Shown in pieces: positions 37,004 through 64,000 of a stretch of DNA of 64,000 nucleotides. How positions within the stretch are numbered: position 1 is the first letter of the stretch; every line of letters starts with the position of its first letter. The translations under genes were made by a program, and so were the position numbers. The DNA lies in contig DATGXO010000107.1 in NCBI GenBank assembly GCA_035298965.1, positions 38,860 to 102,859 on the forward strand, read 5' to 3'. The DNA comes from Opitutaceae bacterium. GTDB taxonomy: Bacteria > Verrucomicrobiota > Verrucomicrobiia > Opitutales > Opitutaceae. The notes beneath the pieces were generated by a model. That model made no database searches. It was not told the origin of the DNA and saw only the letters and a program-made list of their open reading frames with translations.

Positions 37004-39646
37004 TCAGGGCCGCGTGGAGGAGTTTCCGCCCTGCGGCCGCGGCAGCTCCAAGGGCTGGCCTGCAAAGTCGATCGATGCGTCGGGCGCGGCGGTGGTTTCG
37101 TCACCGACTCCACAACCCGGACGCACCCAGACGATGCGAAAGGTCCGCTTCACCGACATTTCGGGGAAACTGCCCGCGCGGGCGCCGAAGGTGAGCGTCT
37201 GCTTCCGTTCGTCCCAATGCAGCGAAACGGTGGCGCGAGCGCCTTCCGTGTAGGCGTTGGAAACGCCGTCGTCTTCGTAGAGCGTGTAGTCGGCGTCGGC
37301 GCCGGGGTAGATCCGCAGATCGATCGGCCCGTCGAGTTTTTCGTCGCTGAACTGCTGGACCGGGCCGAGCGGCAGGATCGAGCCGCCGCGCACGAAGAGC
37401 GGGATGCGGCTCAGCGGAGCCGCGGCTGAGACAGTGCGGCCGCCGATGTGGCGCTCGCCGGTCCAGAAGTCGAACCAGCCGCCCGCGTCCTGCGGCAGAT
37501 AGACCGGCCACTGTTCGACGCCTGGCGCGAGGACCGGCGCGACGAGCAGAGCGGGGCCGAACATGAATTCGCCGGTCTGGTCGAGCGCGGTCGTGTCGTC
37601 CGGAAAATCGAGCACGAGCGGGCGCATGAGCGTCGAACCCGCGAAGCTCACGCGCGCGGTTTCGCTGTAGAGGTAGGGCAGGAGCCGGTAGCGCAGCTTG
37701 AGCCAGCGGCGGCTCTCGGCTTCGACTTGCGGGCCGTAGCGCCAGAATTCGGTGTCGGTCTGATAGCCATGCACGCGGAGCAACGGTGTGAAGAGCGAGA
37801 ACTGCAACCAGCGTAGGAAACGTTCGTGGTAATCGGCGTCGGTGAACTGGCCCGCGCCGGGGCGGAAGAAACCGCCGGTGTCGGTCGTCCACCACGGCAG
37901 GCCGGTGACGACGTAGCCGAGGCCCGCGGTGACTTGCCGGCGCAGCGTCTCCCAGTCGTTGCCGATGTCCCCGGACCAGGTCGCCGCCGCGTAACGCTGT
38001 TGGCCGGCGAACGCGCAGCGGGTGAGGATGAGCGGCCGGCGTGCGGAGTCGTCGCGCCGCAGGCCTTCATAGACGGTGCGGTTCACGAGCAGCGGGTAAA
38101 CGTTACGCATCCGCTCGCCCAGGCCGGCGTGCGTGCGCCGGTCCGCGAGATCGTCGTTTTCCGGCTCGGTGGCATCCTGCCACCACGCGTCGATGCCGAG
38201 CGGGAGCAGGCGCGAACGCACGTTTTCCCAATAGAAAGCGGTGGCACTGGGATTGAAGAAATCGACCCAGTCCGTGCCGGGAATCAGGTAACCGCGGGCG
38301 ACAAACTCGCGGCCGACCTCGGACTGCGGATCGATCTTCGACCACACGGAGAGCATGAATCGCGTGTGCTGCGCGTGCAGCTGCGCGATCATCGCGCCGG
38401 GATCGGGGTAGTCCGCCTCGTCGAACCGCATGGCGTTCCAGCCATGGCGGCCCCAGTACTGCCAATCCTGCACGATCACATCGATTGGGAGCCCGCGCGC
38501 GCGGAACTCGGCGGCGTTGGCCAGCAACTCGGCCTGCGCCTTGAAACGCTCGCGACAATGGATGTAGCCGAGCGCCCAGCGCGGCATGAGCGGTGCCGGT
38601 CCGGTGAGCTGGCGATAGGCCGCGGTGATCTCGTCGCCGTGCCCGGCCACCACCACGTAGTCGAGCGCATCGGCGACCGGAGAGCGAAATTCCGTGACGG
38701 CCCGCGCGGGCCGGAAACTCAGCACGGGTGCATCGTCCTTCTCGCCCACGACCACCGCTTCGTGTTCGCCGGCGTCGAGTTGGGCGAAGCATCCCGCGAA
38801 GGGAGGCAGCCAATGGTTGCTGAAGTCGACGATCGGCTTGCCGTCGATCTCCACACGCCAGCGGCGCGCCATCTTCCGGCCGACATCGAGGGCGAAGGTG
38901 TAGCGGCCGGGCGTCGTCACCAGGAAACGGCCGACGAACGCGCGGTCCTGCCGCGTTTCCTTCTTCGTGCCCTCGGTGGTCGTCACGTCCACCGCCGACG
39001 CGACGCCGCTGGCATCGCGGGCGGTGAGCGCGATCTGCGCGTCGGCGGGGTTGAACTCGGTGAGTCCGTAGTTGTGCCACAGCAGACCGAAACCGCGGCT
39101 CGAAACGATGAACGGGATCGCGATCTGGGTGTTCACCTGCGCAAGCCGGCGGGGCAGATCGCGGATGTTGAGGAAACCGTCCTGAAACTGCCCGGTCCCG
39201 AACAGCCGCTCGTCCGCCGGCGAATCGAAGGACTGGGCGACGGTCCACGTCGGCTCGCCATGGATGGTCGAGGCCTCGACTCGGCGCGTACCGGGCTGCT
39301 CGCGCAGGAACACGCGCCCGCTGGCGTCGCGAAACGTGATCGTGCCGGTGGTCCGATCGACGCTGGCGCTCAGGCACGCCAGCTCCAGGTCGATCGCGTC
39401 GGCCTTCTCCCGCACTTCGAACCTCGGCGTGGGGACATCCTCCGTGAGAATCAGGCTGTCGCTCTCGACACTGGCGCCGCGGACGAAGCGCACGCGCAGC
39501 GCATTGTCGAGGAGCGGCCGGAGCACCAGCCGGCCGCCGCCGATCTCGATGCTCCATTCGCGCGGGGTGGCGGGCGCCGCGGGTTGCGCGGGCAATTGGG
39601 CCGTCAAAACCAAGGCGAAGGCGGAGAGCAACAACGTGCGACGCAT
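37004..39646 (-). CDS. GH31 glycoside hydrolase with PA14-like insertion (alpha-xylosidase-type)
   Basis: ATG 39646 with signal peptide. GIDAWWQDATEPE catalytic region, WSGDIG, and an inserted beta-domain between the N-terminal and catalytic domains. Confidence 0.8.
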   Translation of the reverse strand: MRRTLLLSAFALVLTAQLPAQPAAPATPREWSIEIGGGRLVLRPLLDNALRVRFVRGASVESDSLILTEDVPTPRFEVREKADAIDLELACLSASVDRTTGTITFRDASGRVFLREQPGTRRVEASTIHGEPTWTVAQSFDSPADERLFGTGQFQDGFLNIRDLPRRLAQVNTQIAIPFIVSSRGFGLLWHNYGLTEFNPADAQIALTARDASGVASAVDVTTTEGTKKETRQDRAFVGRFLVTTPGRYTFALDVGRKMARRWRVEIDGKPIVDFSNHWLPPFAGCFAQLDAGEHEAVVVGEKDDAPVLSFRPARAVTEFRSPVADALDYVVVAGHGDEITAAYRQLTGPAPLMPRWALGYIHCRERFKAQAELLANAAEFRARGLPIDVIVQDWQYWGRHGWNAMRFDEADYPDPGAMIAQLHAQHTRFMLSVWSKIDPQSEVGREFVARGYLIPGTDWVDFFNPSATAFYWENVRSRLLPLGIDAWWQDATEPENDDLADRRTHAGLGERMRNVYPLLVNRTVYEGLRRDDSARRPLILTRCAFAGQQRYAAATWSGDIGNDWETLRRQVTAGLGYVVTGLPWWTTDTGGFFRPGAGQFTDADYHERFLRWLQFSLFTPLLRVHGYQTDTEFWRYGPQVEAESRRWLKLRYRLLPYLYSETARVSFAGSTLMRPLVLDFPDDTTALDQTGEFMFGPALLVAPVLAPGVEQWPVYLPQDAGGWFDFWTGERHIGGRTVSAAAPLSRIPLFVRGGSILPLGPVQQFSDEKLDGPIDLRIYPGADADYTLYEDDGVSNAYTEGARATVSLHWDERKQTLTFGARAGSFPEMSVKRTFRIVWVRPGCGVGDETTAAPDASIDFAGQPLELPRPQGGNSSTRP

Positions 39647-39647
39647 G

Positions 39648-42299
39648 TTAACGAAGAGCGCTGGTGAGTGTGACTTCCTTTGCCTCGAGTCCCTCCGCTT
39701 CGGCTCGGAGCACGAGCGTACCCGCAGTTCCGGCACGGCTGCGAACGATGACGATCGCACGGCCGTTGAAGGCTTTGCGCTCGGGTGTTTGGAAGGATTC
39801 GAAGCTGATCGGGTTGCCGTTGTCGGTCGCGATGATCTCGCCGGGGCCTTGCAGCGAGAAACGCACGAGGTTGTTCGCGCGCGGCGCGAGCACGCCGGCG
39901 GCGTCGAGGAGGTCGACCGTGACGTAGACGAGGTCGGTGCCGTCGGCGCGGAACGTCGCACGATCGGGGGTGAGCGCGATCTTCGCGGGTGCGCCGGCGG
40001 TGCGTTGCGTGTCCTCGGTCCAGTGTTGGCCGTTCTTGTACGCGACCACCTTGATTTCGCCGGGCGCATAGCGCACGTCATCCCAGCGCAGGCGGTAGTC
40101 GTGCGGGCCGCGTTTCTTGCGACCGAGCGATTTGCCGTTGAGGAAGAGCTCGGCTTCGTCGCCGCTGGTGTAGACGTGCACGGGCGTGATCTCGCCGGTG
40201 CGCTCCGGCCAGGTCCAGTGCGGGAGGAGGTGCGCCATCGGGTGATCCGGGCGCCAGCGCGCCTGGTAGAGGAAGAAGCGGTCCTTCGGCAGGCCGGCGA
40301 GGTCGAGGATGCCGAAATAGGAGCTGCGCGCCGGCACCGGGATGCGACCGCGCTCCGCGAGTTCCTTCGCCATGCGCTCGCGCGCGGCGGGATCGGAGAA
40401 GTTGAGGAGGATGGTCGCGTCGCTGAGGTACGGTTGCGGCTCGCCCAGATAGTCGAAGCCGGTCCAGACGAACTCGCCGGCGTAACCGGTGATCGCATCG
40501 GAGGCGCGCCACTCGGGCTCCGTGCCCGAGGCCCACGACTCGGCGGTGTAGTCGTACGAGCTGACCTGGAAATTCACGCGCGCACCGCGATCGAGCCGGT
40601 CTTCGCTCACGGGGAAGAAATACTCGCCGCGCGAGCTGATCGTGGAGGCCGTCTCGGAACCGTAGAGCGGGATGGCGGGATTCTCGGCGCGGAAACGCGC
40701 GTACGTCTCGATGCGGTAGTTGAGGCCGGTTGCGTCGAACGCGTGCTGGACGCCGTTGAAGCCCATCTCACCGGAGTGGTTGGCGTTGCTCACGGGCCGG
40801 GTGCGGTCCTCCTCGCGCACGATGGCGGCGAGGTGCGCGGCGAGTTTCCACGCCTCGTGGCTGTCCTCGCCCCACTGCTCGACGACTTCGTTGCCGACGC
40901 TCCACATGAACACGCTCGGGTGGTTGCGGTCGCGGCGGACGAGGGCGCGGAGATCCGCCTCGTGCCAGTCGGCGAAGAAACGGTGGTAGTCGTTGCGACC
41001 TTTGCCCTTTGCCCAGCAATCGAAAGCTTCGTCGTAGACGAGGAAGCCGAGGCGGTCGCAGGCGTCGAGAAATTCGGGCGCGGGCGGATTGTGCGAGGTG
41101 CGGATGGCGTTGCAGCCGAGCGTGCGGAGAATCTCGAGCTGGCGTTCGATGGCGCGCGGGTTGATCGCGGCGCCAAGGGCGCCGAGATCGTGGTGCAGGC
41201 ACACGCCCTGGAGGCGCACCACTTCGCCGTTGAGCAGGAAGCCGCGCTCGGCGTCGAACGCGACCGTGCGGATGCCGAACGTTGTCTCGACGCGGTCGAT
41301 GATCTCGTCGCTGCGTTTGATCGTGCTGACGGCGACGTAGCGGTGCGGCGCGGTGATGCTCCAGAGCTTGGGGGAGGCGACCTTCAGCGTCTGCGTGGTG
41401 GACGACTCGCGGTGCGACGGCGCGCGCAGTTTGACCGGCTGGCCGCTCGCGACGGCGCCGGCGCCGTTTTTCGAGCCGGCGGCGTCGAGGGCGAAAAGCT
41501 CCGTGTTGATCGTGAGCTCGGCGGCCTCACCGGTGTCGTTCATCGTGCGGACCTCGACCGACACGAGGGCGGAATCGGCGCTGACGCGCGGCGTGGTGAC
41601 GAACGTGCCCCATTGCGCGACGTGAATCGGAGCCGTCTTGGTGAGCCACACGTTGCGGTAGAGTCCGGCTCCCGGATACCAGCGCGAGGACTCGTAGAGG
41701 TTGTCGAGACGAACCGCGAGGACGTTGTCCCCACCGGGCTTGGCGTAAGGCGTGAGGTCGAGCTGGAACGACGTGTAGCCGTAGGCCCAGCCGCCGACGA
41801 ACTGGCCGTTGAGCCAGACGAGCGGGCAGGACAACGCACCGTCGATCTCGAGGGTGAGCCGGCGGCCGGCGTCGGTGGCGGGCAGCGTGAAACGCTTCCG
41901 GTACCAACCGGGCGTGCCGAAGGGCAGCTTGCCGGTGTCGCCGGGCAGATCCTGTTGAAACGGCCCTTCGATGGCCCAGTCGTGCGGCAGGTCGAGCGAG
42001 CGCCACGCGCTGTCGTCGTAACCGGGCTGTACGCACGAAATACCGCTGCCGAGATTCCCGGAGGGGCGGGCGGGCTTGGTCGTGCCGGAGCCGAGGAGCG
42101 GCGCGCTGCTCGGCAGCAGCCACGTGCGCACGGTCGGGTAATCGAGCTCGGACGCGACCCATTGCGGATCGCCCTTGTAGAAGCGCCAGCCGCTGTTGAG
42201 CGAGAGGCGTTCACGGGGTGGTGCTTCGTCCGCACGGAGAACCGCCGAGGAGCCGAAGCAGAGCGCGACGGCGACGATGATGGGGAATGCGCGTTTCAT
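39648..42299 (-). CDS. GH2 glycoside hydrolase (beta-galactosidase-type)
   Basis: ATG 42299 with signal peptide. LNGQFVGGW sugar-binding domain, NAIRTSHNPP, MWSVGNE (acid/base), and a C-terminal Ig-like domain. Confidence 0.85.
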   Translation of the reverse strand: MKRAFPIIVAVALCFGSSAVLRADEAPPRERLSLNSGWRFYKGDPQWVASELDYPTVRTWLLPSSAPLLGSGTTKPARPSGNLGSGISCVQPGYDDSAWRSLDLPHDWAIEGPFQQDLPGDTGKLPFGTPGWYRKRFTLPATDAGRRLTLEIDGALSCPLVWLNGQFVGGWAYGYTSFQLDLTPYAKPGGDNVLAVRLDNLYESSRWYPGAGLYRNVWLTKTAPIHVAQWGTFVTTPRVSADSALVSVEVRTMNDTGEAAELTINTELFALDAAGSKNGAGAVASGQPVKLRAPSHRESSTTQTLKVASPKLWSITAPHRYVAVSTIKRSDEIIDRVETTFGIRTVAFDAERGFLLNGEVVRLQGVCLHHDLGALGAAINPRAIERQLEILRTLGCNAIRTSHNPPAPEFLDACDRLGFLVYDEAFDCWAKGKGRNDYHRFFADWHEADLRALVRRDRNHPSVFMWSVGNEVVEQWGEDSHEAWKLAAHLAAIVREEDRTRPVSNANHSGEMGFNGVQHAFDATGLNYRIETYARFRAENPAIPLYGSETASTISSRGEYFFPVSEDRLDRGARVNFQVSSYDYTAESWASGTEPEWRASDAITGYAGEFVWTGFDYLGEPQPYLSDATILLNFSDPAARERMAKELAERGRIPVPARSSYFGILDLAGLPKDRFFLYQARWRPDHPMAHLLPHWTWPERTGEITPVHVYTSGDEAELFLNGKSLGRKKRGPHDYRLRWDDVRYAPGEIKVVAYKNGQHWTEDTQRTAGAPAKIALTPDRATFRADGTDLVYVTVDLLDAAGVLAPRANNLVRFSLQGPGEIIATDNGNPISFESFQTPERKAFNGRAIVIVRSRAGTAGTLVLRAEAEGLEAKEVTLTSALR

Positions 42300-42321: not shown

Positions 42322-43149
42322 TCACCGGCCGCGCGATGTCGAATCGTCGTTGGTGGTTTCCGGCTTCGCCGCACCGCGCCGCTCGATCGCCACGTGGTAG
42401 TCGGCCACCTCGAGACTCGCGTCGCCCGGGCTGGAGAAGACCTCGGTGCCAAACTGGATGCTCGAAAGCTGTTTGGTCGCGGGCATGAGGCCCTGCGCGA
42501 CCAGGTGGTCGATGAAGGCCTTCACGTCGACCCGCCACGCCGTGGTCGTCTCTTCGCGCACGAACGAGAAGACCTTCCAGCCGATGTCGCCCACGTAGAG
42601 GCTCCACTCGGCGCCGTCGATGCGGACTTTCGCACGAAGTTCGCCGAGCGGGCCCGCGCCGCCGTAGCGGCCCATCCAGATCATCAACTCGTCCGAGGGT
42701 TTGTCTTCGCTGCGTACGGGCGCCGCAGCGTGGAACCAGAGGTCGTAGGCGAGATTCTGCACGCCGGGATTCACGACTTTGACCGAGGCGCTGCTCACGG
42801 CCTGCGCGAGTTCGGAGACGGGCATGGGCAGCCTCCCATCGGTCGACCATGCGCCCCATTGCCAGCCGGTCACGACGCTCGGGTAGCACTTCACGCCGTG
42901 GGGATTGGTCCCGGCGGGCCAGTTGTAGCGGACGCGCCACGTGAGCTTCTCGCCGGGTTGGATCACATCGACGAGTTGCCAGCCGGCGGGCGAAGTGTCT
43001 TTCCCCCAGACGTTGTTGTTCAGGAGGTATCCCGAGACGACGAGCGTCTCCTTTTCCTGGATCGTCTTCTCGCCGGCTGAGGCTGGCGGCATGGACACGC
43101 AGAGAGCGCCCAGACAAAGGGCGCCGAGGCGGAGATGTAGTTTGGTCAT
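42322..43149 (-). CDS. GH12 endo-beta-1,4-glucanase / xyloglucanase
   Basis: ATG 43149 with signal peptide. GH12 motifs NNNVWG, SDELMIWMGRYGGAGPLG and IQFGTEVF. Confidence 0.8.
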   Translation of the reverse strand: MTKLHLRLGALCLGALCVSMPPASAGEKTIQEKETLVVSGYLLNNNVWGKDTSPAGWQLVDVIQPGEKLTWRVRYNWPAGTNPHGVKCYPSVVTGWQWGAWSTDGRLPMPVSELAQAVSSASVKVVNPGVQNLAYDLWFHAAAPVRSEDKPSDELMIWMGRYGGAGPLGELRAKVRIDGAEWSLYVGDIGWKVFSFVREETTTAWRVDVKAFIDHLVAQGLMPATKQLSSIQFGTEVFSSPGDASLEVADYHVAIERRGAAKPETTNDDSTSRGR

Positions 43150-43195: not shown

Positions 43196-45136
43196 TTACT
43201 CGGAATCGGTCGCGAAGGGCGACGCGGGCAGGCCGGCGCGGTTGAACAGATTGCCATCGGCGACGTTGGCCCAGGCGTAACGCACGGCGGTCGGAGCGGG
43301 CACCTCGTCGGCGACGATCTCGATCGCATCGTCGACAATCGTCGCGCGGGCCGGATGGAAAACTCCATCGCCGCCCGCGACGACGAAGCCCCGCAGCTCG
43401 CCGTCCTTTGCCACGAGTCCGCCGCCAAGATGGTCGAACGCCAGGATGGCGCGTCGGCCGTCGACGCGGATCGAGCGGAACGCCGGTCCCGAGTATTCCA
43501 GGTGCTCGCCGTACGCGAGCGCACGAGCGGCGAGAGCGAGGCGTTCGCCCACGGGCTTTTTGTCCGCGGGGTGGATGTCATCGGGGTCGCCCACATCGAG
43601 CGTCACGGCCATCGCGGAGTTGGGGATCGCGGTGAGCGAGAGCCGTTGCGCCTCGCGGATCTCAGGGGGCATCTCGCGGAACGGGGCGATCTGGACGTAC
43701 AAGAACGGGAAGCTGCCCTGGCCCCACGCGCGTCGCCAATCGGCGACGAGATTGGGGAAGAGGCGGCGGTAGAACTGGGGCCGGGTGGCGTTGGTTTCAC
43801 CTTGGTACCAGATTACGCCGCGGATCGCGTAAGGCTGCAGCGGGGCGATCATGCCGTTGTAGAGCACGGTCGGCGTGCCTTGGGCGATCGCGGGATCGAT
43901 CGGCGGCGGCGGGGCGTTGCGCGACGAGACCGAAATCTTGTAGTTCCAGTCGCCGTCCAAGGGGATCGTGAGGGCGGGGTCGTCGGTGCGCGTGAGCCGC
44001 AGCGTGTCGCCGCCCCAGATGCCGCCGCCGCCGCCGGTATCGAGGACGCGGATAGCGATGACGTTGCGGCCCGGCTTCAGCGTGCCGGCGGGCAACTGGT
44101 AAACGCGTGGCTCGCTCCATCTCGTGTGGCAGCCGACGAAGCGGTCGTTGATCCAGGTGGCATCGATGTCGTCGACCGCCCCGAGGTGGAGCTCGACTTC
44201 CCGTCCGATCCACGAGGCCGGCACGTCAAACTCCCGTCGGAACCAGACCACGCCGTCGAGATCGGGCAACCCGGCACTCTCCCAAAACACCGGCAGGCGC
44301 ATCACCGGCCACGCGCTGGTATCGAGCGTCTCCGCGCACCATGGCGGGTTGGAGGCGGAGCCCGGATCGTTCATCTCGAACCAACGCGCGAGGTTGCGTT
44401 CGAAATCGGTGCGAGCTCCGGCGGGATCGCGACGGATCCGGTCGAGGCGTGCGGAGACATCGCTCAGCTCGGGGAGGCGGGAGGCGCCGTCGCGGCTGGT
44501 CCACGCCTCGGCGGGCGTGCCGCCCCACGAGCTGTGGATCAGGCCGATAGGCGTGCCCCGGGCGAGATGCAGCGCGCGGCCGAAGAAGAAGCCGACCGCG
44601 GAGAATTCGGGCGCGGTCTGCGGTGTGCAGACAAGCCATCGGCCCTCGACGTGGGCTTGCGGCTCCAGCGCCATGCGTTGGGCGACACCGAAGTGCCGGA
44701 TCTGAGGGAAATCCGCGGCGGCGGCCTCGGCCTGCCAGTCCTTGATCGGCTTCTGCCACTGCCGCGGGCCGAGCTGCCGTTCCATATTCGACTGGCCACC
44801 ACACACCCAGACTTCGCCGATCAACACATCCGAGACATCGACCCGGTTCTTGCCTTCGATCGTGAGGAGGTGCGGGCCGCCGGCCGGCAACGGCTCCAAC
44901 CGTACGATCCACCGGCCGCCGCGCGCCTGGGTCGTCACGGTCTGTCCCGCGAGCGTTACGGTGATCTTCTCGCCTTCATCCGCCGTGCCCCAGACGGGGA
45001 GCGGCGCGCCTTGTTGGAGCACTGCGTGATCACAAAACAGGGGCGAGGGCACCACGTCGGCCCGCGACAGTGCAGCGGCGGCGATGCAGCCGAGTACCAG
45101 CGCGAGGAGTGGAGTCGTTTTTCGATGCGACTTCAT
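43196..45136 (-). CDS. SASA/DUF303-type carbohydrate O-acetylesterase
   Basis: Signal peptide, VWVCGGQSNME (GQSN catalytic Ser block), and SWGGTPAEAW. Confidence 0.8.
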   Translation of the reverse strand: MKSHRKTTPLLALVLGCIAAAALSRADVVPSPLFCDHAVLQQGAPLPVWGTADEGEKITVTLAGQTVTTQARGGRWIVRLEPLPAGGPHLLTIEGKNRVDVSDVLIGEVWVCGGQSNMERQLGPRQWQKPIKDWQAEAAAADFPQIRHFGVAQRMALEPQAHVEGRWLVCTPQTAPEFSAVGFFFGRALHLARGTPIGLIHSSWGGTPAEAWTSRDGASRLPELSDVSARLDRIRRDPAGARTDFERNLARWFEMNDPGSASNPPWCAETLDTSAWPVMRLPVFWESAGLPDLDGVVWFRREFDVPASWIGREVELHLGAVDDIDATWINDRFVGCHTRWSEPRVYQLPAGTLKPGRNVIAIRVLDTGGGGGIWGGDTLRLTRTDDPALTIPLDGDWNYKISVSSRNAPPPPIDPAIAQGTPTVLYNGMIAPLQPYAIRGVIWYQGETNATRPQFYRRLFPNLVADWRRAWGQGSFPFLYVQIAPFREMPPEIREAQRLSLTAIPNSAMAVTLDVGDPDDIHPADKKPVGERLALAARALAYGEHLEYSGPAFRSIRVDGRRAILAFDHLGGGLVAKDGELRGFVVAGGDGVFHPARATIVDDAIEIVADEVPAPTAVRYAWANVADGNLFNRAGLPASPFATDSE

Positions 45137-45817
45137 CGTTCAGCGGCGGGCCGGGGACGTAAGCCGAAGGAGCGCCAACTGGTGAGGAAGCTGGCTTGTG
45201 AGTGCGGTCGCGTTGGGGGCGCGCGGGGGCGTCTGCGCGTGACATCTGTCGCTCTCAAGAACGATCCAGCAGGAGAACCGGTGACGGGTGGGAACGAGGC
45301 GCGGGAACATGGTCGGGTGGGGGTGCGATGCGAGCGGGCTCGCAGGCGCGCGGAGCTGAGGCAACGAACCGAACGGTCGAGCTGTCGGTCGCCGACAGTG
45401 CCGGCGGCAGCGCTGCCGTTGGGATCGGCGTCGAGCCACGCCCCCGCGAGGGTGCTGAAGCCACAGACCCTAGCACGATCCCGCTCGCGGAAGTTATCAA
45501 AAACCGTCCGGAGACTGTCCCCTATTCGTGTTACGCACCGCCGCGCTTCGCTGCGGCATCCCGCAAGTCCGCGCTGGCCCCCTGCTCTCACCCGCGCGGG
45601 GAACACGGATGCGGGGCGCTGGCGCGAAGTCGCCGGACTCGCGCGCCGCCACGGCGGACGAAAGCCATGACGTCGCGCGCCATGGGGAGAAATCCGGACG
45701 GGCGTTTCCGGCAACGCGTGCCGGCGGGGCAAAACTGCACCCGCAACGCCACTCGTCTCTCCGGCGGCAAACAACGCCGCGGTGCGCGATGGGCGCACGC
45801 GCGGGCGTCGCGGCACA

Positions 45818-47651: not shown

Positions 47652-47678
47652 GTCTCATTCAGAATGTCTGAATGAGAC
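47652..47678. promoter_or_regulatory. Perfect 12-3-12 palindrome GTCTCATTCAGA-atg-TCTGAATGAGAC (operator or RNA hairpin)
   Basis: Read directly. It is AT-rich relative to its surroundings and lies between the GH2 stop (47864) and the GH29 start (47521). Confidence 0.6.
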
Positions 47679-57914: not shown

Positions 57915-57924
57915 CCCCCCCCCC
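57915..57924. repeat. C10 homopolymer tract about 50 nt upstream of the GH5 ATG
   Basis: Read directly: cagtcccccccccctaag. Confidence 0.8.
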
Positions 57925-57974
57925 TAAGCACAGTACCATCAACCAGGGCGGCACGTCCGAGTGTCGCATTGCCT

Positions 57975-60443
57975 ATGTTCGCCCCCCGAAAACTACTTAC
58001 CCTCGCAGGCGCCCTTCTGAGCGCGTTGCTGATCACCAGTTCCCCCGCGGCCGTGAAGTCGGAGATGCAGACCTATGTCGAGGCGATGCAGCCCGGCTGG
58101 AATTTGGGCAACTCGTTCGACGCTCCCGGCTCCGAAACCGGTTGGGGCAACCCGGTCGTGACACAGGAGTTCATCCAGCAAATCGCCGCCCAAGGCTTCA
58201 AGAGTATCCGCATCCCGGTGAGCTGGAGCGATCACACGGGCGCTGCGCCGACCTATACGGTCGACACCGCCTGGCTGGATCGCGTGGAACAGGTCGTCAA
58301 TTGGTCCCTCGATGCCGGTCTCCACGTGATGCTCAACATGCACCACGACTCGTACTGGATCCGGGAGATGCCGGCCGACTATATCGCCAGGTATACGGCG
58401 GTGTGGCAGCAGATCGCCCCGCGCTTCCGCGACCATCCTCGCGAGCTCATGCTCGAGACCATCAACGAGCCGGACTTCCTCAATGTCGACGACGCGACGA
58501 AGATCACTCTGGTCAACGAGCTGAACACGATCGCGTACGACGTGATCCGCGGCACCGGCGGTGGCAATGCCACGCGCCCGATTGTGATGCCGACCGTCGT
58601 CACCAACGCCAGCCAGATGTTCCTCGATGGCCTCAAGGCCAAGATGGTCGAACTGAACGACTCCAACCTGATCGCGACCATTCACTTCTACGGCTACTGG
58701 CCCTTCAGCACGAACATCGCCGGTGTGACGACCGTCGACGCCTCGGTGCTCAACGACATCAACACCTCGCTCAATGGCGCCTACGACACGTTCGTGGCCG
58801 CCGGTATCCCGGTGGTCGTCGGCGAACTCGGCCTGCTCGCGTACGACGCCGACATTAATGCGATCGAGCGCGGTGAGTTGCTGAAATTCTTTGAGATTTT
58901 CACCGCCACCGCCCAGTCAAAGGGCATCACCTGGCAGTGGTGGGACAATGGGAAATTCATCAACCGCGCCACCTACCAGTGGCGTGACCCCGAGCTCTAT
59001 GGCTACTTGATGCGGAGCGTTGCCGGCCGCACGACCACCGGCAGCACCGATCTCGTCTTCCTCAAGAAGGGCCTCCCGGTTCAGGACACGGTTGTTCAGC
59101 TGAACCTCAATGGAAACACCTTCGTCTCCCTCAAGGATGGCGCCACCACGCTGCAGTCGGGATTGGATTATACCCTGAGCGGCGAGAAGTTGACGCTCAA
59201 GGCGCGCGCGCTGTCGAAGTACGCCACCGGCTCATTTGGCGAGAAGGCGGTCTTCACGGTCAACATGACCTCCGGCCTTCCGTGGAAACTGCACGTGCGC
59301 TATGTCGATACCCCGGTTGCCTCTTCGGTCGATACCGAGACCGGCGCCGACATTCCCGTGCCGCTCGCCTTCAACGGCGACCTGCTCAAGACGGTCGAAG
59401 CCAAGTACTCGGACGGCACTGGCATCGAGCCGCACGCGTGGACGTCCTTCAAGCAGTGGCGCGATACGTACACGCCCGACTACGCGAACAACCAGATCAC
59501 CTTCAAGAAGGCGCTCTTCGACAAGGCCAAGCCGGGCCTCCTGAACTTCGCCTTCTATTTCTGGAGCGGGAAAGTCGTTCGCTACCAGATGTCGATCGTC
59601 GATCGCGCCGGCCAGGTCGGCACCGAACTCCAGATCTACGGCGACGGCCTCGCTGCGGGTTGGAACGACTGGACGAGTTGGGCGACGCACGACTTGGCCA
59701 GCACGGACCAAGCGCACTCCGGCACGCGGTCGATTTCGGTGACTCCCGGCGCTTACGGTGCTGTTGGTCTTTCGAATGGCGGCGCGGCTATCGATACGTC
59801 GATTTACCATACATTGGTGTTCTGGATTCATGGCGGATCCGTCGGCGGCCAGAGCATCGGCGTCGGCGCCGTGCGTGGCGACGATTGGAGTTCCCCCTGG
59901 ACCGGTATTCCGGCTCCGGTGGCGAATACTTGGCAAAAAGTGGAAGTTTCGCTCAGAAGCCTCGGCGTCGACGGAAGCTCCAATATCAGCCGGGTCCTCT
60001 TCCAGGACTGGTCGGGCGGGGATGCTCCGACCTTCTATATCGACGACATCGTCCTGACGACCGCCAAGGCCTCGACATCGATGGATGTCTACGCCGATCC
60101 GGCCGTGAACATGACACCGCAGGTCCAGATCACGAAGGGCGGCTATGTGCTCAATCGTCGCACGAATCGCTACGTCCAGACCGTCGTCGTTAAGAATACC
60201 GGATCCACTCCGGTGACGGGGCCGGTCTATCTCGTCCTGGATTCGCTGTCCGCCAACACGACGCTGTCGAACTCGTCCGGCAAGACCAACGTCGAGCTCC
60301 CGACCGGTAGCCCGTACGTGCAGGTCACTTCCGGCGCCCTCGCCGCCAATACCCAGGTGAGTGTCTCCCTCGAGTTCACCGTTCCTGCCTCCGGTGGCAT
60401 CACCTACGACGCGCGCCTCCTGACCGACGGTGCGACTCCCTGA
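57975..60443 (+). CDS. Multidomain GH5 endo-beta-1,4-glucanase (xyloglucanase-type) with C-terminal accessory/binding domains
   Basis: ATG 57975 (the track uses TTG 57969). Signal peptide, acid/base LETINEP, nucleophile VVGELG, followed by about 480 aa of beta-rich modules. Confidence 0.8.
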   Translation: MFAPRKLLTLAGALLSALLITSSPAAVKSEMQTYVEAMQPGWNLGNSFDAPGSETGWGNPVVTQEFIQQIAAQGFKSIRIPVSWSDHTGAAPTYTVDTAWLDRVEQVVNWSLDAGLHVMLNMHHDSYWIREMPADYIARYTAVWQQIAPRFRDHPRELMLETINEPDFLNVDDATKITLVNELNTIAYDVIRGTGGGNATRPIVMPTVVTNASQMFLDGLKAKMVELNDSNLIATIHFYGYWPFSTNIAGVTTVDASVLNDINTSLNGAYDTFVAAGIPVVVGELGLLAYDADINAIERGELLKFFEIFTATAQSKGITWQWWDNGKFINRATYQWRDPELYGYLMRSVAGRTTTGSTDLVFLKKGLPVQDTVVQLNLNGNTFVSLKDGATTLQSGLDYTLSGEKLTLKARALSKYATGSFGEKAVFTVNMTSGLPWKLHVRYVDTPVASSVDTETGADIPVPLAFNGDLLKTVEAKYSDGTGIEPHAWTSFKQWRDTYTPDYANNQITFKKALFDKAKPGLLNFAFYFWSGKVVRYQMSIVDRAGQVGTELQIYGDGLAAGWNDWTSWATHDLASTDQAHSGTRSISVTPGAYGAVGLSNGGAAIDTSIYHTLVFWIHGGSVGGQSIGVGAVRGDDWSSPWTGIPAPVANTWQKVEVSLRSLGVDGSSNISRVLFQDWSGGDAPTFYIDDIVLTTAKASTSMDVYADPAVNMTPQVQITKGGYVLNRRTNRYVQTVVVKNTGSTPVTGPVYLVLDSLSANTTLSNSSGKTNVELPTGSPYVQVTSGALAANTQVSVSLEFTVPASGGITYDARLLTDGATP

Positions 60444-60475: not shown

Positions 60476-61117
60476 ATGAATCTTCTGCGCAATTCGACTC
60501 TCGCCGCTCTGCTCGCTCTGGCGGCAACCGCTGCCGCCAACGCTCAGGTTACCTACAACATCTCGCTCGACACCAGTTCGCTGCTCTCCAGTTCATCCGC
60601 GCCGTTCTCGCTGGATTTCCAGTTCAGCGACGGCTCGGGCGTCGGTTCCGGCCTGAACTGGGCGACGTTGAGCAACTTCCAGTTCGGCGGTGGTTCCGCT
60701 GTCGGCACCCCGACGTTGTGGGGCGATGCCACCGGTGATCTTGGGTCCACAGTCACGCTGGGGACCTCCGATGCGATGCTGAACGAGTTCTACCAGGAGT
60801 TTGCTCCGGGTACGTTCCTTTCGTTCAACCTCACGTTGACGACCAACACCCCGTGGTCGGGGGCGACGGATCTGTTCTCGTTCTCAATCCTGGATGGTAG
60901 CTTGGCGAGCCTCTTGACGGACTCCCCCAACGGGGCCCTCGTCGAAGTGAGTCTCAGCGATCTCGGCGCCGCCACCGCGACTTTCGGCAGCTCCGACAAC
61001 GGCCTCTCCGCGCCATCGATCACCGCCATCCCGGAACCCGCGACCTACGGCCTGTTCTTGGGCGCCGGACTTCTGGTGGCTGTTGTTGTCCGACGAGTGA
61101 CTACAAAACGCGCCTAG
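60476..61117 (+). CDS. Small secreted PEP-CTERM sorting-domain protein
   Basis: Signal peptide, then a Ser/Thr/Gly-rich body. The C-terminus is IPEPATYGLFLGAGLLVAVVVRR: a PEP motif, a TM helix, then a basic tail. Confidence 0.85.
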   Translation: MNLLRNSTLAALLALAATAAANAQVTYNISLDTSSLLSSSSAPFSLDFQFSDGSGVGSGLNWATLSNFQFGGGSAVGTPTLWGDATGDLGSTVTLGTSDAMLNEFYQEFAPGTFLSFNLTLTTNTPWSGATDLFSFSILDGSLASLLTDSPNGALVEVSLSDLGAATATFGSSDNGLSAPSITAIPEPATYGLFLGAGLLVAVVVRRVTTKRA

Positions 61118-61136: not shown

Positions 61137-61168
61137 CGAACAAGTTATATTCGGATAGAACTTGTTCG
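61137..61168. promoter_or_regulatory. 10-bp inverted repeat CGAACAAGTT-n12-AACTTGTTCG (terminator hairpin or operator)
   Basis: Read directly, 20 nt after the PEP-CTERM gene's stop and about 130 nt before the TonB-dependent receptor's ATG. AT-rich. Confidence 0.5.
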
Positions 61169-61296
61169 CCGAGCGCCGGCGCGAAGCAACGACCGGCGCA
61201 TTCTATATACAACGCTTGGTAGCACTGCCTCCAGCCAAGCACAGATTTCGACAGTTTCCCCAGGTGCAAGCCTGCAAACCAACCCCCGAAAGTAAA

Positions 61297-64000
61297 ATGA
61301 AGAACCTAGGTACTAGATCTGCTCTGACACTATTGTCGGCGCTTTCTCTCGGCACCGGAACGATCTGGGCGCAAGCAGCGGCCAGTGAGAAACCGGCACC
61401 AGCGGACGTTGAGACCGAAGACGAAGCTGTTGTGCTCTCTCCGTTCGTCGTGACGGCGGAAGAAGACACCGGCTATCTGGCGAATGCGACCGCCGTCGGT
61501 GGCCGCGTCCGTACGGACCTCAAGGACATCGCCTCCGCGATCTCGGTCGTGACGGCCCAGTTCCTCACTGACACGAAGGCGAAGGACAACCAGACCCTGC
61601 TGCAATACACGACCAACACCGAAGTCGGTGGTGTTTACGGCAACTATGCAGGCGTCGGCAACACGTTCGTTCGCGGCAGTGGCGAAACCGACGTCAACAT
61701 GCTGCGCCCGAACGGCAATACCCGCGTGCGTGGTCTCGATTCGGCCGACAACACCCGCAATCTCGTCAAGACTGACATCCCGTGGAACGGTTTCAATGTC
61801 GGCCGCGTCGATTTTCAGCGCGGTCCGAATTCGATCCTTTTCGGTCACGGCAGCCCGGCCGGCATCATCAATGCCACCACGAATGAGGCCGGATTCAAAA
61901 CCGGCGGCAGCGTCGAGACTCAGATTGGCAGCTTCCAAAGCTTCCGCTCCACGCTTGATTACACCCATGTCCTGATCGAGGACACCCTTTCGGTCCGTCT
62001 AGATGCGGCCTACGACAATCAGAAATACCGCCAAAAGCCGGCCTTCAACAAGAACCAATCGATCTATGGCGCGATGCGCTGGGATCCGAAGCTCTTCGGG
62101 AAGGACAGCAAAGCCCGCACCTCCATCAAGGCGAGCTACGAGCATGGGAAAGTGACGGCGAATCGTCCGCACTCCCTGCCTCCGACCGACCGGATCACCC
62201 CATTCTTTGATCCCAATGCGCTGAACCAGCGCTTGATCGACGTGGGAGTCGACTATCAGACGGGTCTCTATCCGTGGAAGTCCGGAACCGCTGCTGGCGC
62301 TCCGTTCGCCCAGCAGGCGAACAGCTGGTTGAGCAGCGGTGTCGGCGGCCAGAATCCGATGCTCTTCCACAACAACAGCACGACTCCGTACCGCGCGACG
62401 GCTGTTTCTGCCAACAGCCAATTCTCGCCGTTCGGCTCGATCGGCGGGTTCATCTTCTCCGTTCCCGCAGGCGTTGCCGGTTACGGTGAATATGTCAGCA
62501 ACATCATCAAATACGGGCAGCAGAACGGTGTGCCGTTGAGCGAGATCAACAAATACGGCAAAGCCGGCGGCGACTTCGACAGAGGCTTCTGGAAAGACAA
62601 GTCGCTCACCGATCCGAGCATCTTCGATTTCTACAACAACCTGATCCACGGCCCGACCAAGAAGGAATGGCAGGGCTGGCAGGCCTACAACATCACCCTG
62701 GAGCAGACGCTTCTGGATAACCGGCTCGCCTTCCAGGCGGTCTATGATCGCCAGTCCTATAACGATGGCGGTCAAAGCATCCTCGGTTGGAATCCTTCGC
62801 TCACCATCGACAACAACCTCTACACGTCGGACTGGCAGTCGGGTTACACACCCTTGGCGCAGCTCAACCCGGATGCGGGTCGTGCGTATGTGACTGGTCA
62901 AGGCGGTGGGACCGGTCGTTGGACCGAGCGTGAAAACGTGATTGTCACGGCCACTGGCGAATTGCGCGCAGCCGATTTCCTCGATCGCAAGTCGCTTCTG
63001 GCCCGAATCCTCGGTCACCATACCATCACGCTCGCCTACCACGAGGAGACGGTGAAGCAGGAGGACCGCAGCTGGGCGCTCTACGCGGCGACAGGTCACT
63101 GGTCGGACCTGATCGGTACGGGTTATGGACTGTCTTATGACGGCAAGCCCGGCACCAAGACCGGCGGATTGAAGAACGGTGACACGATCGTAAGCAGCAC
63201 GATCTACCTCAGCCCCAGCTTGCTCGGCAAGAACGGCACCAATCTCAACATTTCGCCGATCCGGAACGATGTGGCGCCTCCGAGTTCGCTCGAGGTACGC
63301 TATTTCGATTCGCACTGGCTGTGGCCGCTCGATCCTGCCAACCCGCTGTATGTCGACCCACAGGCGCCTTGGCAAAACGTGGGTTACATGGACGGCATGG
63401 GCAACACGAAGACCGACAAGCAGAAGGACAATCCCTTCAACTATGTCGGTTGGGTAAGCGAGACCCTGCCGATCATGAGCGCCGACCGCGGCGACATCGA
63501 TCAGCTGTATCGCCGCGGCAGCAAGTTGCGGAACAAGACCGTTTCGAAGGGCGCCACTTGGCAGGCCTATTTCTTCGACGAGACTGTTGTTGCCACGGCG
63601 GGCTATCGCAAGGATCGGCTGAAAACCCGTGCGGGCCAAGCCGAGCAGGATTCCACCGGCGTCGCCATGATCCACAGCTACGGACTCGAGCCCCAGAATG
63701 CGAGTGGGATCAACGACGACTCCAGCATCTCCTGGGGCGTCGTCGCACGCCTGCCGAAGTTCTTGCGTGGCAAGTTGCCGCTGGGTGCGGATATCGCGCT
63801 CGGCTATAGCAACGGCAAAAATAGCCGCGTCGAAAACCGCTACGGTTTCAGCGCCAATCGCCTGCCGAATTCCACCGGGCGCACCGAGGACATCAGCTTG
63901 GCGGTTACAATGCTCGAGAATCGCTTAAGCTTCAAGGTCACTCATTACGATACCACCAACAAGGATGCCAACATCTCCTCGGTGGGCGGCCAGAATGCCA
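61297..64000 (+). CDS. TonB-dependent outer-membrane receptor; 3' end runs off the window
   Basis: Own translation from ATG 61297: MKNLGTRSALTLLSALSLGTGTIWAQAA...AVVLSPFVVTAEED (TonB box region)...NTRVRGLD...VDFQRGPNSILFGHGSPAGIINATT (plug). The frame stays open to the window end. Confidence 0.85.
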   Translation, partial: MKNLGTRSALTLLSALSLGTGTIWAQAAASEKPAPADVETEDEAVVLSPFVVTAEEDTGYLANATAVGGRVRTDLKDIASAISVVTAQFLTDTKAKDNQTLLQYTTNTEVGGVYGNYAGVGNTFVRGSGETDVNMLRPNGNTRVRGLDSADNTRNLVKTDIPWNGFNVGRVDFQRGPNSILFGHGSPAGIINATTNEAGFKTGGSVETQIGSFQSFRSTLDYTHVLIEDTLSVRLDAAYDNQKYRQKPAFNKNQSIYGAMRWDPKLFGKDSKARTSIKASYEHGKVTANRPHSLPPTDRITPFFDPNALNQRLIDVGVDYQTGLYPWKSGTAAGAPFAQQANSWLSSGVGGQNPMLFHNNSTTPYRATAVSANSQFSPFGSIGGFIFSVPAGVAGYGEYVSNIIKYGQQNGVPLSEINKYGKAGGDFDRGFWKDKSLTDPSIFDFYNNLIHGPTKKEWQGWQAYNITLEQTLLDNRLAFQAVYDRQSYNDGGQSILGWNPSLTIDNNLYTSDWQSGYTPLAQLNPDAGRAYVTGQGGGTGRWTERENVIVTATGELRAADFLDRKSLLARILGHHTITLAYHEETVKQEDRSWALYAATGHWSDLIGTGYGLSYDGKPGTKTGGLKNGDTIVSSTIYLSPSLLGKNGTNLNISPIRNDVAPPSSLEVRYFDSHWLWPLDPANPLYVDPQAPWQNVGYMDGMGNTKTDKQKDNPFNYVGWVSETLPIMSADRGDIDQLYRRGSKLRNKTVSKGATWQAYFFDETVVATAGYRKDRLKTRAGQAEQDSTGVAMIHSYGLEPQNASGINDDSSISWGVVARLPKFLRGKLPLGADIALGYSNGKNSRVENRYGFSANRLPNSTGRTEDISLAVTMLENRLSFKVTHYDTTNKDANISSVGGQNA

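What the first reader, a model, noticed from the sequence alone, without database searches (positions are those of the whole stretch)
37004..64000. SusD-less CAZyme locus whose enzyme set matches complete fucogalacto-xyloglucan saccharification
The locus encodes two endo-acting backbone enzymes (GH5 at 57975-60443 and GH12 at 42322-43149). It also encodes a GH31 with a PA14-like insert (alpha-xylosidase type), two GH2 (beta-galactosidase type, one with a discoidin domain), two GH29 alpha-L-fucosidases, a SASA-type O-acetylesterase and a CE1-like esterase. Regulation and uptake are covered by a propeller/Y_Y_Y sensor kinase with a NarL-type regulator, and a TonB-dependent receptor. These activities correspond one-to-one to the linkages of acetylated Fuc-Gal-Xyl-decorated xyloglucan, based on established knowledge of Bacteroides and Cellvibrio xyloglucan loci. 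It differs from Bacteroidota PULs in three ways. There is no SusD partner in the window. The sensor is split from its regulator. A PEP-CTERM protein sits between the endoglucanase and the receptor. No GH3 or GH1 beta-glucosidase is seen in the window.
Basis: inference. Interest (0 to 1): 0.6.

Follow-up and report, generated by a model that had tools for sequence, protein, structure and literature searches.

The report
Opitutaceae xyloglucan locus, PEP-CTERM-partnered endoglucanases
An uncultured Opitutaceae (Verrucomicrobiota) genome carries a SusD-free gene cluster built around a TonB-dependent receptor that very probably digests plant xyloglucan; the enzyme set is of a known kind, but each backbone-cutting enzyme ends in an unannotated domain and sits next to its own small PEP-CTERM surface protein, a pairing that recurs widely and is unexplained.

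Summary
All the named genes are present, in frame, and carry signal peptides. The best solved relatives are the characterised xyloglucan enzymes: BoGH31A, XacXyl31 and CjXyl31A; the B. licheniformis GH12 xyloglucanase; the BhCel5B-type GH5-X2-CBM46; and the Xanthomonas xyloglucan acetylesterase XacXaeA (CE20). Xyloglucan is therefore the most likely substrate (about 0.75). The fucose step by GH29, the role of the second GH2 and the role of CE1 are inferred.

"SusD-less" is a trait of the whole genome, not of this locus. The same design (TonB receptor, beta-glucosidase elsewhere, MFS porter) is published for Xanthomonas and Cellvibrio. The locus runs 15 kb past the window, where it holds a second GH5/PEP-CTERM cassette. 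Another contig holds a third cassette with CE20, GH29, GH2 and GH31.

The unusual part is the pairing. All three GH5 enzymes end in an unannotated domain of about 110 aa, and each is followed by an NF038129 PEP-CTERM gene. In the nearest relatives recovered, this C-terminal domain sits on other cargo and is still next to an NF038129 gene: 27 of 37 metagenome loci are directly adjacent, and so are 3 other Opitutales genomes. This scan noted the same pairing before in a Massilia-type genome. I rate it a new variant of a known kind, with moderate interest.

The parts
37004..39646 (-). GH31 alpha-xylosidase with a PA14-like insert and a signal peptide
   Evidence: Pfam GH31 domains. Best solved relatives are BoGH31A 6e-147, XacXyl31 3e-144 and CjXyl31A 8e-135, with the WW.D..EP and WSGDI motifs aligned. 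Start fixed by the signal peptide, 1 nt after the GH2 stop.
39648..42299 (-). GH2 beta-galactosidase (GalB type)
   Evidence: Pfam GH2 N, Ig and TIM domains plus DUF4982 and C5. NCBIfam GalB scores 1119 bits against a cut-off of 900. Matches B. uniformis GH2A 5t98 at 1e-201.
42322..43149 (-). GH12 endo-beta-1,4-glucanase, xyloglucanase-like
   Evidence: Pfam GH12. Best solved relative is 2jem/2jen at 2e-33. The ELMIW and GTE catalytic motifs are present.
43196..45136 (-). CE20 O-acetylesterase (XacXaeA family): SGNH domain split by a beta-sandwich insert
   Evidence: Full-length matches to 9h4u 8e-136, 7kmm (XacXaeA) 3e-131 and 9ega. Ser116 in GQSNM and Asp520-x-His522 align with the catalytic residues of Fl8CE20.
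45137..45817 (.). 681-nt spacer, apparently non-coding, inside the gene run
   Evidence: No codon periodicity. The only ORF is an Arg/Pro-rich artefact. No Rfam match.
45818..47521 (-). GH29 alpha-L-fucosidase family enzyme, copy a
   Evidence: Pfam Alpha_L_fucos and Fucosidase_C. Solved relatives 7snk/7ljj at 1e-76 and 4ni3 at 1e-52. Homologues 73-80% identical, some named Opitutaceae or Lacunisphaera.
47652..47678 (.). Perfect 12-3-12 palindrome upstream of GH29a
   Evidence: Read. It is the only such site in the genome. Function unknown.
47864..50494 (-). GH2 with a C-terminal F5/8 type C (discoidin) domain and a lipobox-like signal (LSAC)
   Evidence: Pfam. Below every NCBIfam cut-off. Solved relatives are a mix of beta-galactosidases and beta-glucuronidases at about 1e-75. 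N-terminus read.
50566..52239 (-). GH29, copy b
   Evidence: Pfam. 71% identical to copy a and 81% to the C121 copy.
52427..53359 (-). CE1-like (PF00756) esterase with a signal peptide
   Evidence: Pfam. NCBIfam matches the feruloyl-esterase half of a xylanase/esterase at 4e-34, below cut-off.
53711..54379 (-). NarL/LuxR-type response regulator
   Evidence: Pfam Response_reg and GerE.
54369..57431 (-). Sensor kinase: beta-propeller repeats, Y_Y_Y, HisKA_3, HATPase
   Evidence: Pfam. The genome holds 8 paralogues of the sensor part.
57975..60443 (+). Secreted endoglucanase: GH5 (subfamily-4 type), X2, CBM46, CBM8-like module, C-terminal domain
   Evidence: Pfam. Solved relatives 5xrc, 5e09 and 4v2x at 1e-141 to 1e-143 over residues 22-546. 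The middle module folds like CBM8 7t7y, E 2e-11, 34% identity.
60078..60440 (+). Unannotated C-terminal domain (about 110 aa, all-beta) of the GH5 enzyme
   Evidence: No Pfam or NCBIfam family. In this genome it occurs only in the three GH5 enzymes. 2012 representatives in the protein library, nearly all at the extreme C-terminus, on cargo spanning 65 Pfam families.
60476..61117 (+). NF038129-family PEP-CTERM protein, partner of the GH5 enzyme
   Evidence: NCBIfam NF038129 scores 113.8 bits against a cut-off of 65. Pfam PEP-CTERM. Beta-sandwich model, pLDDT 88. Gene pairing shown.
61162..64000 (+). TonB-dependent receptor (1298 aa; continues about 1.06 kb past the window)
   Evidence: Plug domain. 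68% identical to the receptor of the C121 cassette.
26669..27448 (-). Exosortase domain, the likely processing enzyme for PEP-CTERM proteins (one of four in the genome)
   Evidence: PF09721 match at C107:65528-66307. Its link to this locus is inferred only.

Best explanation
This is a xyloglucan utilisation locus of the TonB-dependent-transporter type (no SusD) in an uncultured Opitutaceae bacterium.

Inferred working order:
1. The secreted GH5 subfamily-4-type enzyme (GH5-X2-CBM46-CBM8-like) and the small GH12 cut the beta-1,4-glucan backbone outside the cell.
2. The 1298-aa TonB-dependent receptor takes up the oligosaccharides.
3. In the periplasm, CE20 removes O-acetyl groups, GH29 removes terminal alpha-L-fucose (or alpha-L-galactose), GH2 removes beta-galactose, and the PA14-bearing GH31 removes alpha-xylose.
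4. A GH3 encoded elsewhere removes the exposed glucose.
5. A XylE-like MFS porter just past the window imports monosaccharides.
6. The propeller/Y_Y_Y kinase senses oligosaccharides and, through its NarL-type regulator, switches the genes on.

Each endoglucanase also carries an unannotated C-terminal domain of about 110 aa and is co-encoded with its own NF038129 PEP-CTERM protein. I read these as a cognate pair that handles the secreted enzyme at the cell surface, most likely by tethering it through an anchor sorted by exosortase.

Shown here: gene content, family assignments, catalytic motifs, signal peptides, duplication of the module, and the gene pairing. Inferred: substrate, compartments, order of steps, regulation, and any physical contact between the C-terminal domain and the partner.
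For: Closest characterised relatives are xyloglucan enzymes:
- GH31 matches BoGH31A, XacXyl31 and CjXyl31A, including the PA14 region and catalytic motifs.
- GH12 matches 2jem/2jen.
- GH5-X2-CBM46 matches 5e09, 4v2x and 4yzp.
- The esterase matches XacXaeA (7kmm) over its full length, with Ser and Asp-x-His conserved.
- GH2a passes the GalB equivalog cut-off.

Other support:
- All the enzymes have signal peptides.
- The combination recurs. Contig C121 has GH5, NF038129 and 2 TonB receptors lying divergent to CE20, GH29, GH2 and GH31. Three of the genome's four GH29 genes lie in these loci.
- Metagenome relatives keep GH5 and NF038129 next to GH2 genes.
- Published analyses assign the same family mix (GH5_4/GH12, GH31_4, GH2, GH29, CE20) to xyloglucan.
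- SusD-free xyloglucan loci with TonB receptors, an MFS porter and an unlinked beta-glucosidase are characterised in Xanthomonas and Cellvibrio.

Pairing of the C-terminal domain (CTD) with NF038129:
- 3 of 3 cases in this genome.
- G197, G147 and G241, where the cargo is not a GH5.
- 27 of 37 metagenome loci are directly adjacent on the same strand, with gaps of 17-282 nt.
Against: - No expression or activity data exist.
- GH5 subfamily 4 also holds cellulases and mixed-linkage glucanases.
- The characterised bacterial xyloglucan fucosidases are GH95, not GH29. The GH29s' best solved relative is an alpha-L-galactosidase, and two GH95 genes lie elsewhere in the genome.
- The specificity of GH2b is open.
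- CE1, the BT4151-like GH2, DUF5107-TPR and an AraC regulator suggest a mixed locus.
- Long spacers and three regulators argue against a single operon.
- The full gene set is not conserved in the two same-genus genomes. They keep GH31 (70-76% identity), with CE1 or GH29 beside it, but lack the GH5-CTD enzyme. GH12 is found in only 6 of 101 family genomes.
- The NF038129 body has no clear structural relative, so its role is not established.
Confidence: 0.75

Rival explanations
1. The stretch is a composite of several units for different plant cell-wall glycans. A xyloglucan core (GH31, GH12, GH5, CE20) sits beside genes for other fucosylated or galactosylated polymers, such as arabinogalactan proteins, pectic galactan/RG-I side chains or esterified xylan fragments. 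The two GH29s, GH2b, CE1 and the BT4151-like GH2 would serve those polymers rather than xyloglucan.
For: - Three regulators (two kinase/NarL pairs and one AraC) and spacers of 681, 342 and 351 nt.
- The downstream GH2 resembles the RG-I exo-beta-1,4-galactosidase BT4151, at 692 bits, which is below cut-off.
- CE1 resembles feruloyl esterase domains.
- GH2b sits between galactosidases and glucuronidases.
- In G241 the CTD/NF038129 pair sits beside a PL9 pectate lyase.
Against: - CE20, GH29, GH2 and GH31 recur together next to a GH5 cassette on C121.
- GH31 and GH29 are adjacent in same-genus genome G290.
- Published neighbourhoods with the same mix were read as xyloglucan.
Confidence: 0.15
2. 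The endoglucanases target unbranched or mixed-linkage beta-glucans (cellulose, cereal or lichen beta-glucan), and the debranching enzymes are incidental neighbours.
For: GH5 subfamily 4 and GH12 include cellulases and mixed-linkage glucanases. The CBM8-like, CBM11-like and CBM29-like fold of the extra module is known from beta-glucan binders.
Against: The PA14-type GH31 and the XacXaeA-type CE20 have no role on unbranched glucans. The gene set is duplicated as a unit. No GH3, GH1 or cellobiose phosphorylase was seen in the locus.
Confidence: 0.05
3. The NF038129 protein is a free-standing surface glycan-binding protein (a functional stand-in for SusD or SGBP) that hands xyloglucan to the receptor. 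Its adjacency to the enzyme is co-regulation only, with no contact to the C-terminal domain.
For: It lies between the endoglucanase and the TonB receptor in two of three cassettes. Its beta-sandwich body has a weak jelly-roll resemblance, Z 7.7 to a GH16 glucanase.
Against: The partner gene follows the C-terminal domain, not the substrate. The same pairing holds for cargo with no glycan link, such as phosphoesterases, beta-propellers and cadherin-like repeats, and mostly without a neighbouring TonB receptor. The structural match is within the noise range stated by the tool.
Confidence: 0.15

Closest known systems
Xanthomonas citri xyloglucan utilisation locus (Vieira et al. 2021, PMC8245568)
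   Same: SusD-free. It combines TonB-dependent transporters, a GH31 alpha-xylosidase with PA14 (XacXyl31, E 3e-144 to ours), the CE20 acetylesterase XacXaeA (E 3e-131, full length) and an adjacent MFS porter, with periplasmic debranching.
   Different: Xanthomonas uses GH74, GH35 and GH95. Here the corresponding steps fall to GH5 subfamily-4 type plus GH12, GH2 and GH29. Regulation here is by a propeller/Y_Y_Y kinase with a NarL regulator. Here the endoglucanase has a C-terminal domain and a PEP-CTERM partner, and the module is present three times.
Cellvibrio japonicus xyloglucan system (Larsbrink 2014; Attia et al. 2018, PMC5816542)
   Same: A TonB transporter with GH31 in one cluster. GH5_4 enzymes are the key endo-xyloglucanases. 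The beta-glucosidase (Bgl3D) is encoded elsewhere, as the GH3 genes are here.
   Different: In Cellvibrio the GH5_4 genes are unlinked from the cluster, which uses GH35 and GH95 and has no esterase. There is no PEP-CTERM partner.
Bacteroides ovatus XyGUL (Larsbrink 2014; Hemsworth 2016, PMC4967831)
   Same: Homologues of BoGH31A (E 6e-147) and of the GH5_4 endo-xyloglucanase BoGH5A (3zmr). The logic is the same: a surface endo-enzyme, outer-membrane import, then periplasmic exo-enzymes.
   Different: There is no SusC/SusD pair, no SGBP lipoproteins and no hybrid two-component sensor. SusD is absent from the whole genome.
CE20-centred gene neighbourhoods predicted to target xyloglucans (PMC12313940: Sinomicrobium pectinilyticum, Pseudoxanthomonas wuyuanensis)
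   Same: The same family mix is already listed there: GH2, GH29, GH31_4 and GH5_4 or GH74 with CE20.
   Different: Those are Bacteroidota and Pseudomonadota, and they were only listed, not dissected. GH12 and the PEP-CTERM partner are not reported there.
TonB-dependent carbohydrate utilisation (CUT) loci of Verrucomicrobia MAGs (He et al. 2017, PMC5615132)
   Same: The concept of clusters of glycoside hydrolases, TonB receptors and inner-membrane transporters without SusD in this phylum.
   Different: No xyloglucan locus and no enzyme/PEP-CTERM pairing are described in the passages I read.
PEP-CTERM/exosortase sorting (Haft et al. 2006); cohesin-dockerin and T9SS C-terminal domains as functional analogies (my own knowledge, not tested here)
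   Same: NF038129 has the PEP motif, a transmembrane helix and a basic tail, and exosortases are encoded in the genome. The promiscuous extreme-C-terminal module on diverse secreted cargo resembles a dockerin or a T9SS CTD in its distribution.
   Different: The cargo itself has no PEP-CTERM signal. Instead, a separate small PEP-CTERM protein is encoded one-to-one beside it. There is no sequence or clear fold relation to cohesin, dockerin or the T9SS CTD.

Membership tests
Bacteroidota-type PUL (SusC/SusD paradigm) | Adjacent susC-like and susD-like gene pair | tested here: not met
   PF07980 finds nothing in the whole genome, which is 95.7% complete, while the control rings in B. thetaiotaomicron.
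TonB-transporter-type xyloglucan utilisation locus (Xanthomonas/Cellvibrio kind) | A TonB-dependent transporter clustered with a xyloglucan-type GH31 alpha-xylosidase and side-chain exo-glycosidases | tested here: met
   Receptor at 61162 onward. GH31, 2 GH2 and 2 GH29 lie within 25 kb.
TonB-transporter-type xyloglucan utilisation locus (Xanthomonas/Cellvibrio kind) | Induction by xyloglucan, and growth on it dependent on the locus | not testable with these tools
   The genome is an uncultured MAG with no expression data.
GH31 xyloglucan alpha-xylosidase (BoGH31A/CjXyl31A type) | GH31 catalytic motifs plus a PA14 insert in the N-terminal domain | tested here: met
   The WW.D..EP and WSGDI motifs align. 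Residues about 229-321 align to the PA14 region of 7kmp and 2xvg. Pfam PA14 itself gave no hit.
GH5 subfamily 4 with X2 and CBM46 (BhCel5B/BlCel5B type) | GH5 domain closest to subfamily-4 members, followed by X2 and CBM46; catalytic NEP and GE motifs | tested here: met
   Pfam Cellulase, CBM_X2 and CBM46. Matches 5e09, 4v2x and 4yzp, and 2jep, 3zmr and 5oyc are also hit. The motifs are read in the sequence. No dbCAN subfamily call was available, so the subfamily rests on the nearest neighbours.
GH12 | GH12 fold with ELMIW (nucleophile) and GTE (acid/base) motifs | tested here: met
   Pfam 6e-28. Both motifs are present. The nearest solved relative is 2jem.
CE20 (XacXaeA family) | SGNH domain split by a beta-sandwich ancillary domain; Ser nucleophile and Asp-x-His | tested here: met
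   Full-length alignment to 9h4u, 7kmm and 9ega. Ser116 and Asp520/His522 align with S112 and D513/H515. A GH2_N-like insert lies at residues 279-366.
GH29 alpha-1,2-fucosidase acting on xyloglucan | Activity on XXFG/XLFG side chains | not testable with these tools
   Family membership is clear. The nearest solved relatives are an alpha-L-galactosidase and the fungal fucosidase 4ni3. Linkage specificity cannot be read from this.
GH2 beta-galactosidase | Score above a curated equivalog cut-off | tested here: met
   This holds for GH2a only: GalB scores 1119 bits against a cut-off of 900. GH2b (47864-50494) stays below every cut-off, so for that protein the result is inconclusive.
PEP-CTERM / exosortase substrates | C-terminal PEP motif, transmembrane helix and basic cluster; an exosortase encoded in the genome | tested here: met
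   PF07589 and NF038129 hits. The tail is read. Four exosortase genes are present, one of them in the window. Processing itself was not tested.

The most novel reading that the evidence does not exclude
The unannotated C-terminal domain of about 110 aa and the NF038129 PEP-CTERM protein form a cognate two-gene docking system. Exosortase fixes the small protein at the cell surface, and that protein holds the secreted enzyme through the enzyme's C-terminal domain. In this locus the system would keep the endo-xyloglucanase next to the TonB receptor. It would then do, in bacteria that bear exosortases, the job that lipoprotein anchoring and SusD/SGBP do in Bacteroidota. The same system would serve many unrelated secreted enzymes across phyla.
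Probability: 0.3. Interest if true: 0.75.

Novelty: new variant of a known kind. Interest (0 to 1): 0.5.

Why it matters
Xyloglucan is a major root-derived and litter-derived polymer, and Opitutaceae are common in soils and sediments. A single-organism pathway in this phylum gives concrete enzymes to test. One recent enrichment study I read found no MAG that expressed both backbone-cleaving and side-chain enzymes.

The wider point is the enzyme/PEP-CTERM partner pairing. If it is a surface-docking device, it would explain how bacteria without SusD or lipoprotein-anchored enzymes keep endo-enzymes near their transporters. It would also assign a function to a widespread PEP-CTERM family and to an unannotated domain with more than 2000 representatives.

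Tried and rejected
- A scan of genome contigs with the GH5 protein returned almost only Actinomycetota GH5-X2-CBM46 genes at 45-49% identity, so it gave no synteny information for relatives.
- The ORF at 45133-45816 that fills the CE20/GH29 gap is an Arg/Pro-rich artefact with no family.
- An Rfam scan of 34000-64000 found nothing.
- The promoter and terminator scan was no better than shuffled sequence.
- The 27-bp palindrome has no second copy in the genome, so no regulon could be inferred.
- A broad 15-sequence alignment of the C-terminal domain was too divergent for the metagenome scan. A narrower one worked, but it samples only the closer relatives.
- Foldseek and VIA searches of the NF038129 model gave only generic beta-sandwich matches: best E 0.01 and best Z 7.7, which is within the noise range the tool states.
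- I considered fucoidan, mucin or algal glycans as substrates and rejected them. No sulfatase family appeared among the Pfam hits of the ORFs I scanned, and the GH31, GH12, GH5 and CE20 relatives are plant xyloglucan enzymes.
- I did not resolve whether GH2b is a galactosidase or a uronidase.


Full report
**Where the window lies.** The window is G000:C107:38860-102859, on a 118.6-kb contig of a 4.56-Mb assembly with 67% GC, 253 contigs and 95.7% completeness. Named homologues of one locus protein at 73-78% identity come from Opitutaceae, Opitutae and Lacunisphaera MAGs and from isolate EW11. This agrees with earlier notes of this scan that place the genome in Opitutaceae. I could not run a marker-gene phylogeny.

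**Observation.** N-terminal reading corrects four over-long ORFs and shows signal peptides on all enzymes. The minus-strand run, read in its direction of transcription, is:
- the propeller/Y_Y_Y/HisKA_3 kinase
- the NarL regulator
- the CE1-like esterase
- GH29b
- GH2b, which carries a discoidin domain and a lipobox-like LSAC
- GH29a
- CE20
- GH12
- GH2a
- GH31

The last four genes are packed 1-46 nt apart. Spacers of 681, 342, 187 and 351 nt break the rest of the run. Divergent from the kinase lie GH5-X2-CBM46, the PEP-CTERM gene and a 1298-aa TonB-dependent receptor.

**What the enzymes resemble.**
- GH31 matches the three structurally characterised xyloglucan alpha-xylosidases (BoGH31A, XacXyl31, CjXyl31A) at E 1e-135 to 1e-147. 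The match includes their PA14 region and the catalytic motifs.
- The best solved relative of GH12 is 2jem/2jen. From my own knowledge this is the B. licheniformis GH12 xyloglucanase of Gloster et al. 2007, a reference also listed. Both catalytic motifs are present.
- GH5 matches the trimodular GH5-X2-CBM46 enzymes 5e09, 4v2x and 4yzp. Known GH5_4 xyloglucanases (2jep, 3zmr, 5oyc) are also hit.
- The "SASA" esterase is a full-length CE20. It matches XacXaeA, the Xanthomonas xyloglucan acetylesterase, at E 3e-131, and the Ser and Asp-x-His residues are conserved.
- GH2a passes the NCBIfam GalB cut-off.
- The GH29 pair is less clear. The nearest solved relatives are the P. plebeius alpha-L-galactosidase and then 4ni3. 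All bacterial xyloglucan fucosidases in the review I read are GH95, and the genome has two GH95 genes elsewhere.
- GH2b and CE1 remain unassigned.

**Extent and repetition.** Past the window the contig encodes, in order:
- an AraC regulator
- a XylE-like MFS porter
- a DUF5107-TPR protein
- a BT4151-like GH2
- a second GH5-X2-CBM46, 52% identical to the first
- a second NF038129 PEP-CTERM gene, 50% identical to the first
- a second NarL/Y_Y_Y kinase pair, cut by the contig end

Contig C121 holds a third cassette: GH5 at 63% identity, NF038129 at 63%, a TonB receptor at 68%, and a second receptor. Divergent from it lie CE20 (74%), GH29 (81%), GH2, GH31 and another CE20. Three of the genome's four GH29 genes lie in these loci. 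This internal repetition is the best in-silico evidence that the families work together.

The genome has no SusD. Its 10 GH3 matches and 1 GH1 match lie on other contigs.

**Conservation.**
- The two same-genus genomes keep GH31 (70-76% identity), with CE1 or GH29 beside it, but have no GH5 with the C-terminal domain.
- GH12 occurs in 6 of 101 family genomes.
- Metagenome contigs carry full-length GH5 orthologues (49-53% identity) followed by NF038129 and flanked by GH2 genes. One of those GH2 genes is 75% identical to GH2b.

The locus is therefore a recent assembly of modules, not an old conserved operon.

**The PEP-CTERM partner.** The GH5 enzymes extend about 280 aa beyond CBM46. This extension consists of a module that folds like CBM8 (Foldseek E 2e-11, 34% identity to 7t7y) and an all-beta C-terminal domain of about 110 aa with no Pfam or NCBIfam family.

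In this genome the C-terminal domain occurs only in the three GH5 enzymes. The only three NF038129 genes above cut-off follow exactly those genes.

Both features are rare in the 201 genomes sampled from the order, and they coincide:
- In G197 and G147 (one genus) an NF038129 gene precedes a non-GH5 protein of about 550 aa that ends in the domain.
- In G241 a 637-aa protein with the domain is followed by NF038129 and then a PL9 lyase.

In the 1.8-billion-protein representative library the domain has 2012 hits at E<=1e-3. Nearly all sit at the extreme C-terminus of proteins of 100-2800 aa. Sixty long hits carry 65 different Pfam families.

A metagenome scan with the domain gave 37 loci. A local HMM of five NF038129 proteins, applied to those loci, gave these results:
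- 20 loci have a same-strand partner directly downstream, 17-119 nt away.
- 7 have it directly upstream of the cargo gene.
- 3 have it within 1.5-2.6 kb. In one of these (L115) it lies next to a second domain-bearing gene.
- 1 has a partner cut off by the contig end.
- 3 lack a partner although flank is available on both sides.
- 3 have too little flank on one side to judge.

These loci are the closer relatives of one domain and are not independent samples.

The NF038129 body models confidently as a beta-sandwich (pLDDT 88) but has no clear solved relative. The family is commonest in Acidobacteriota and Pseudomonadota. Four exosortases are encoded in the genome, one of them in the window.

An earlier follow-up in this scan reported the same pairing in a Massilia-type genome, so the scan has found this before on other DNA. 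I found no paper describing it.

**Comparison with known systems and verdict.** SusD-free xyloglucan loci with TonB transporters, periplasmic debranching, an MFS porter and an unlinked beta-glucosidase are established in Xanthomonas and Cellvibrio. The same family mix around CE20 has been read as xyloglucan-directed. TonB-linked carbohydrate loci are described for Verrucomicrobia.

The locus is therefore a new member of a known kind in its enzymology. Its surface end makes it a new variant: endoglucanases with a dedicated PEP-CTERM partner, present three times. I put xyloglucan as the substrate at about 0.75. Surface docking by the partner pair is a hypothesis, at about 0.3.

Noticed in passing
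window 45137-45817: A 681-nt stretch between the GH29a stop and the CE20 start shows no codon periodicity, no credible ORF and no Rfam match. That is unusually long for a spacer inside a same-strand gene run.
   Followed up: partly
window 47652-47678: A perfect 12-3-12 AT-rich palindrome lies upstream of GH29a. No second copy or half-site cluster exists anywhere in the genome.
   Followed up: partly
window about 57679-57688 and 57917-57928: Two homopolymeric C runs (about 8-10 nt each) lie in the divergent spacer between the sensor kinase and the GH5 gene. They could be slippage-prone, but this was not examined.
   Followed up: no
L003 (G000:C121:1-20000) and L089: A second xyloglucan-type locus: two TonB receptors, NF038129 and GH5 on one strand; CE20, GH29, GH2, GH31 and another CE20 on the other. 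It is cut by the contig end.
   Followed up: partly
L001 6652-10002 (just past the window): A 1116-aa DUF5107 plus TPR protein sits between the XylE-like porter and a BT4151-like GH2. Its function is unknown.
   Followed up: no
L004 (DATGWU010000289.1): A 1.7-kb contig binned into a 'Rhizobium sp.' soil MAG carries the GH5 C-terminus (82% identity) and NF038129 (91% identity). It is probably misbinned Opitutaceae DNA.
   Followed up: no
L095/L096 (G290:C16) and G215:C36: The same-genus GH31 orthologue is split into two frames near residue 624. The closest GH12 orthologue (62% identity) has an in-frame TAG.
   Followed up: no
L100, L101, L123: Other cargo proteins with the same C-terminal domain carry the CBM8-like module in tandem copies.
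   Followed up: no
G000:C88:976-10895: The fourth, divergent GH29 of the genome lies beside a GH2 and a GH3. This may be another side-chain-trimming locus.
   Followed up: no
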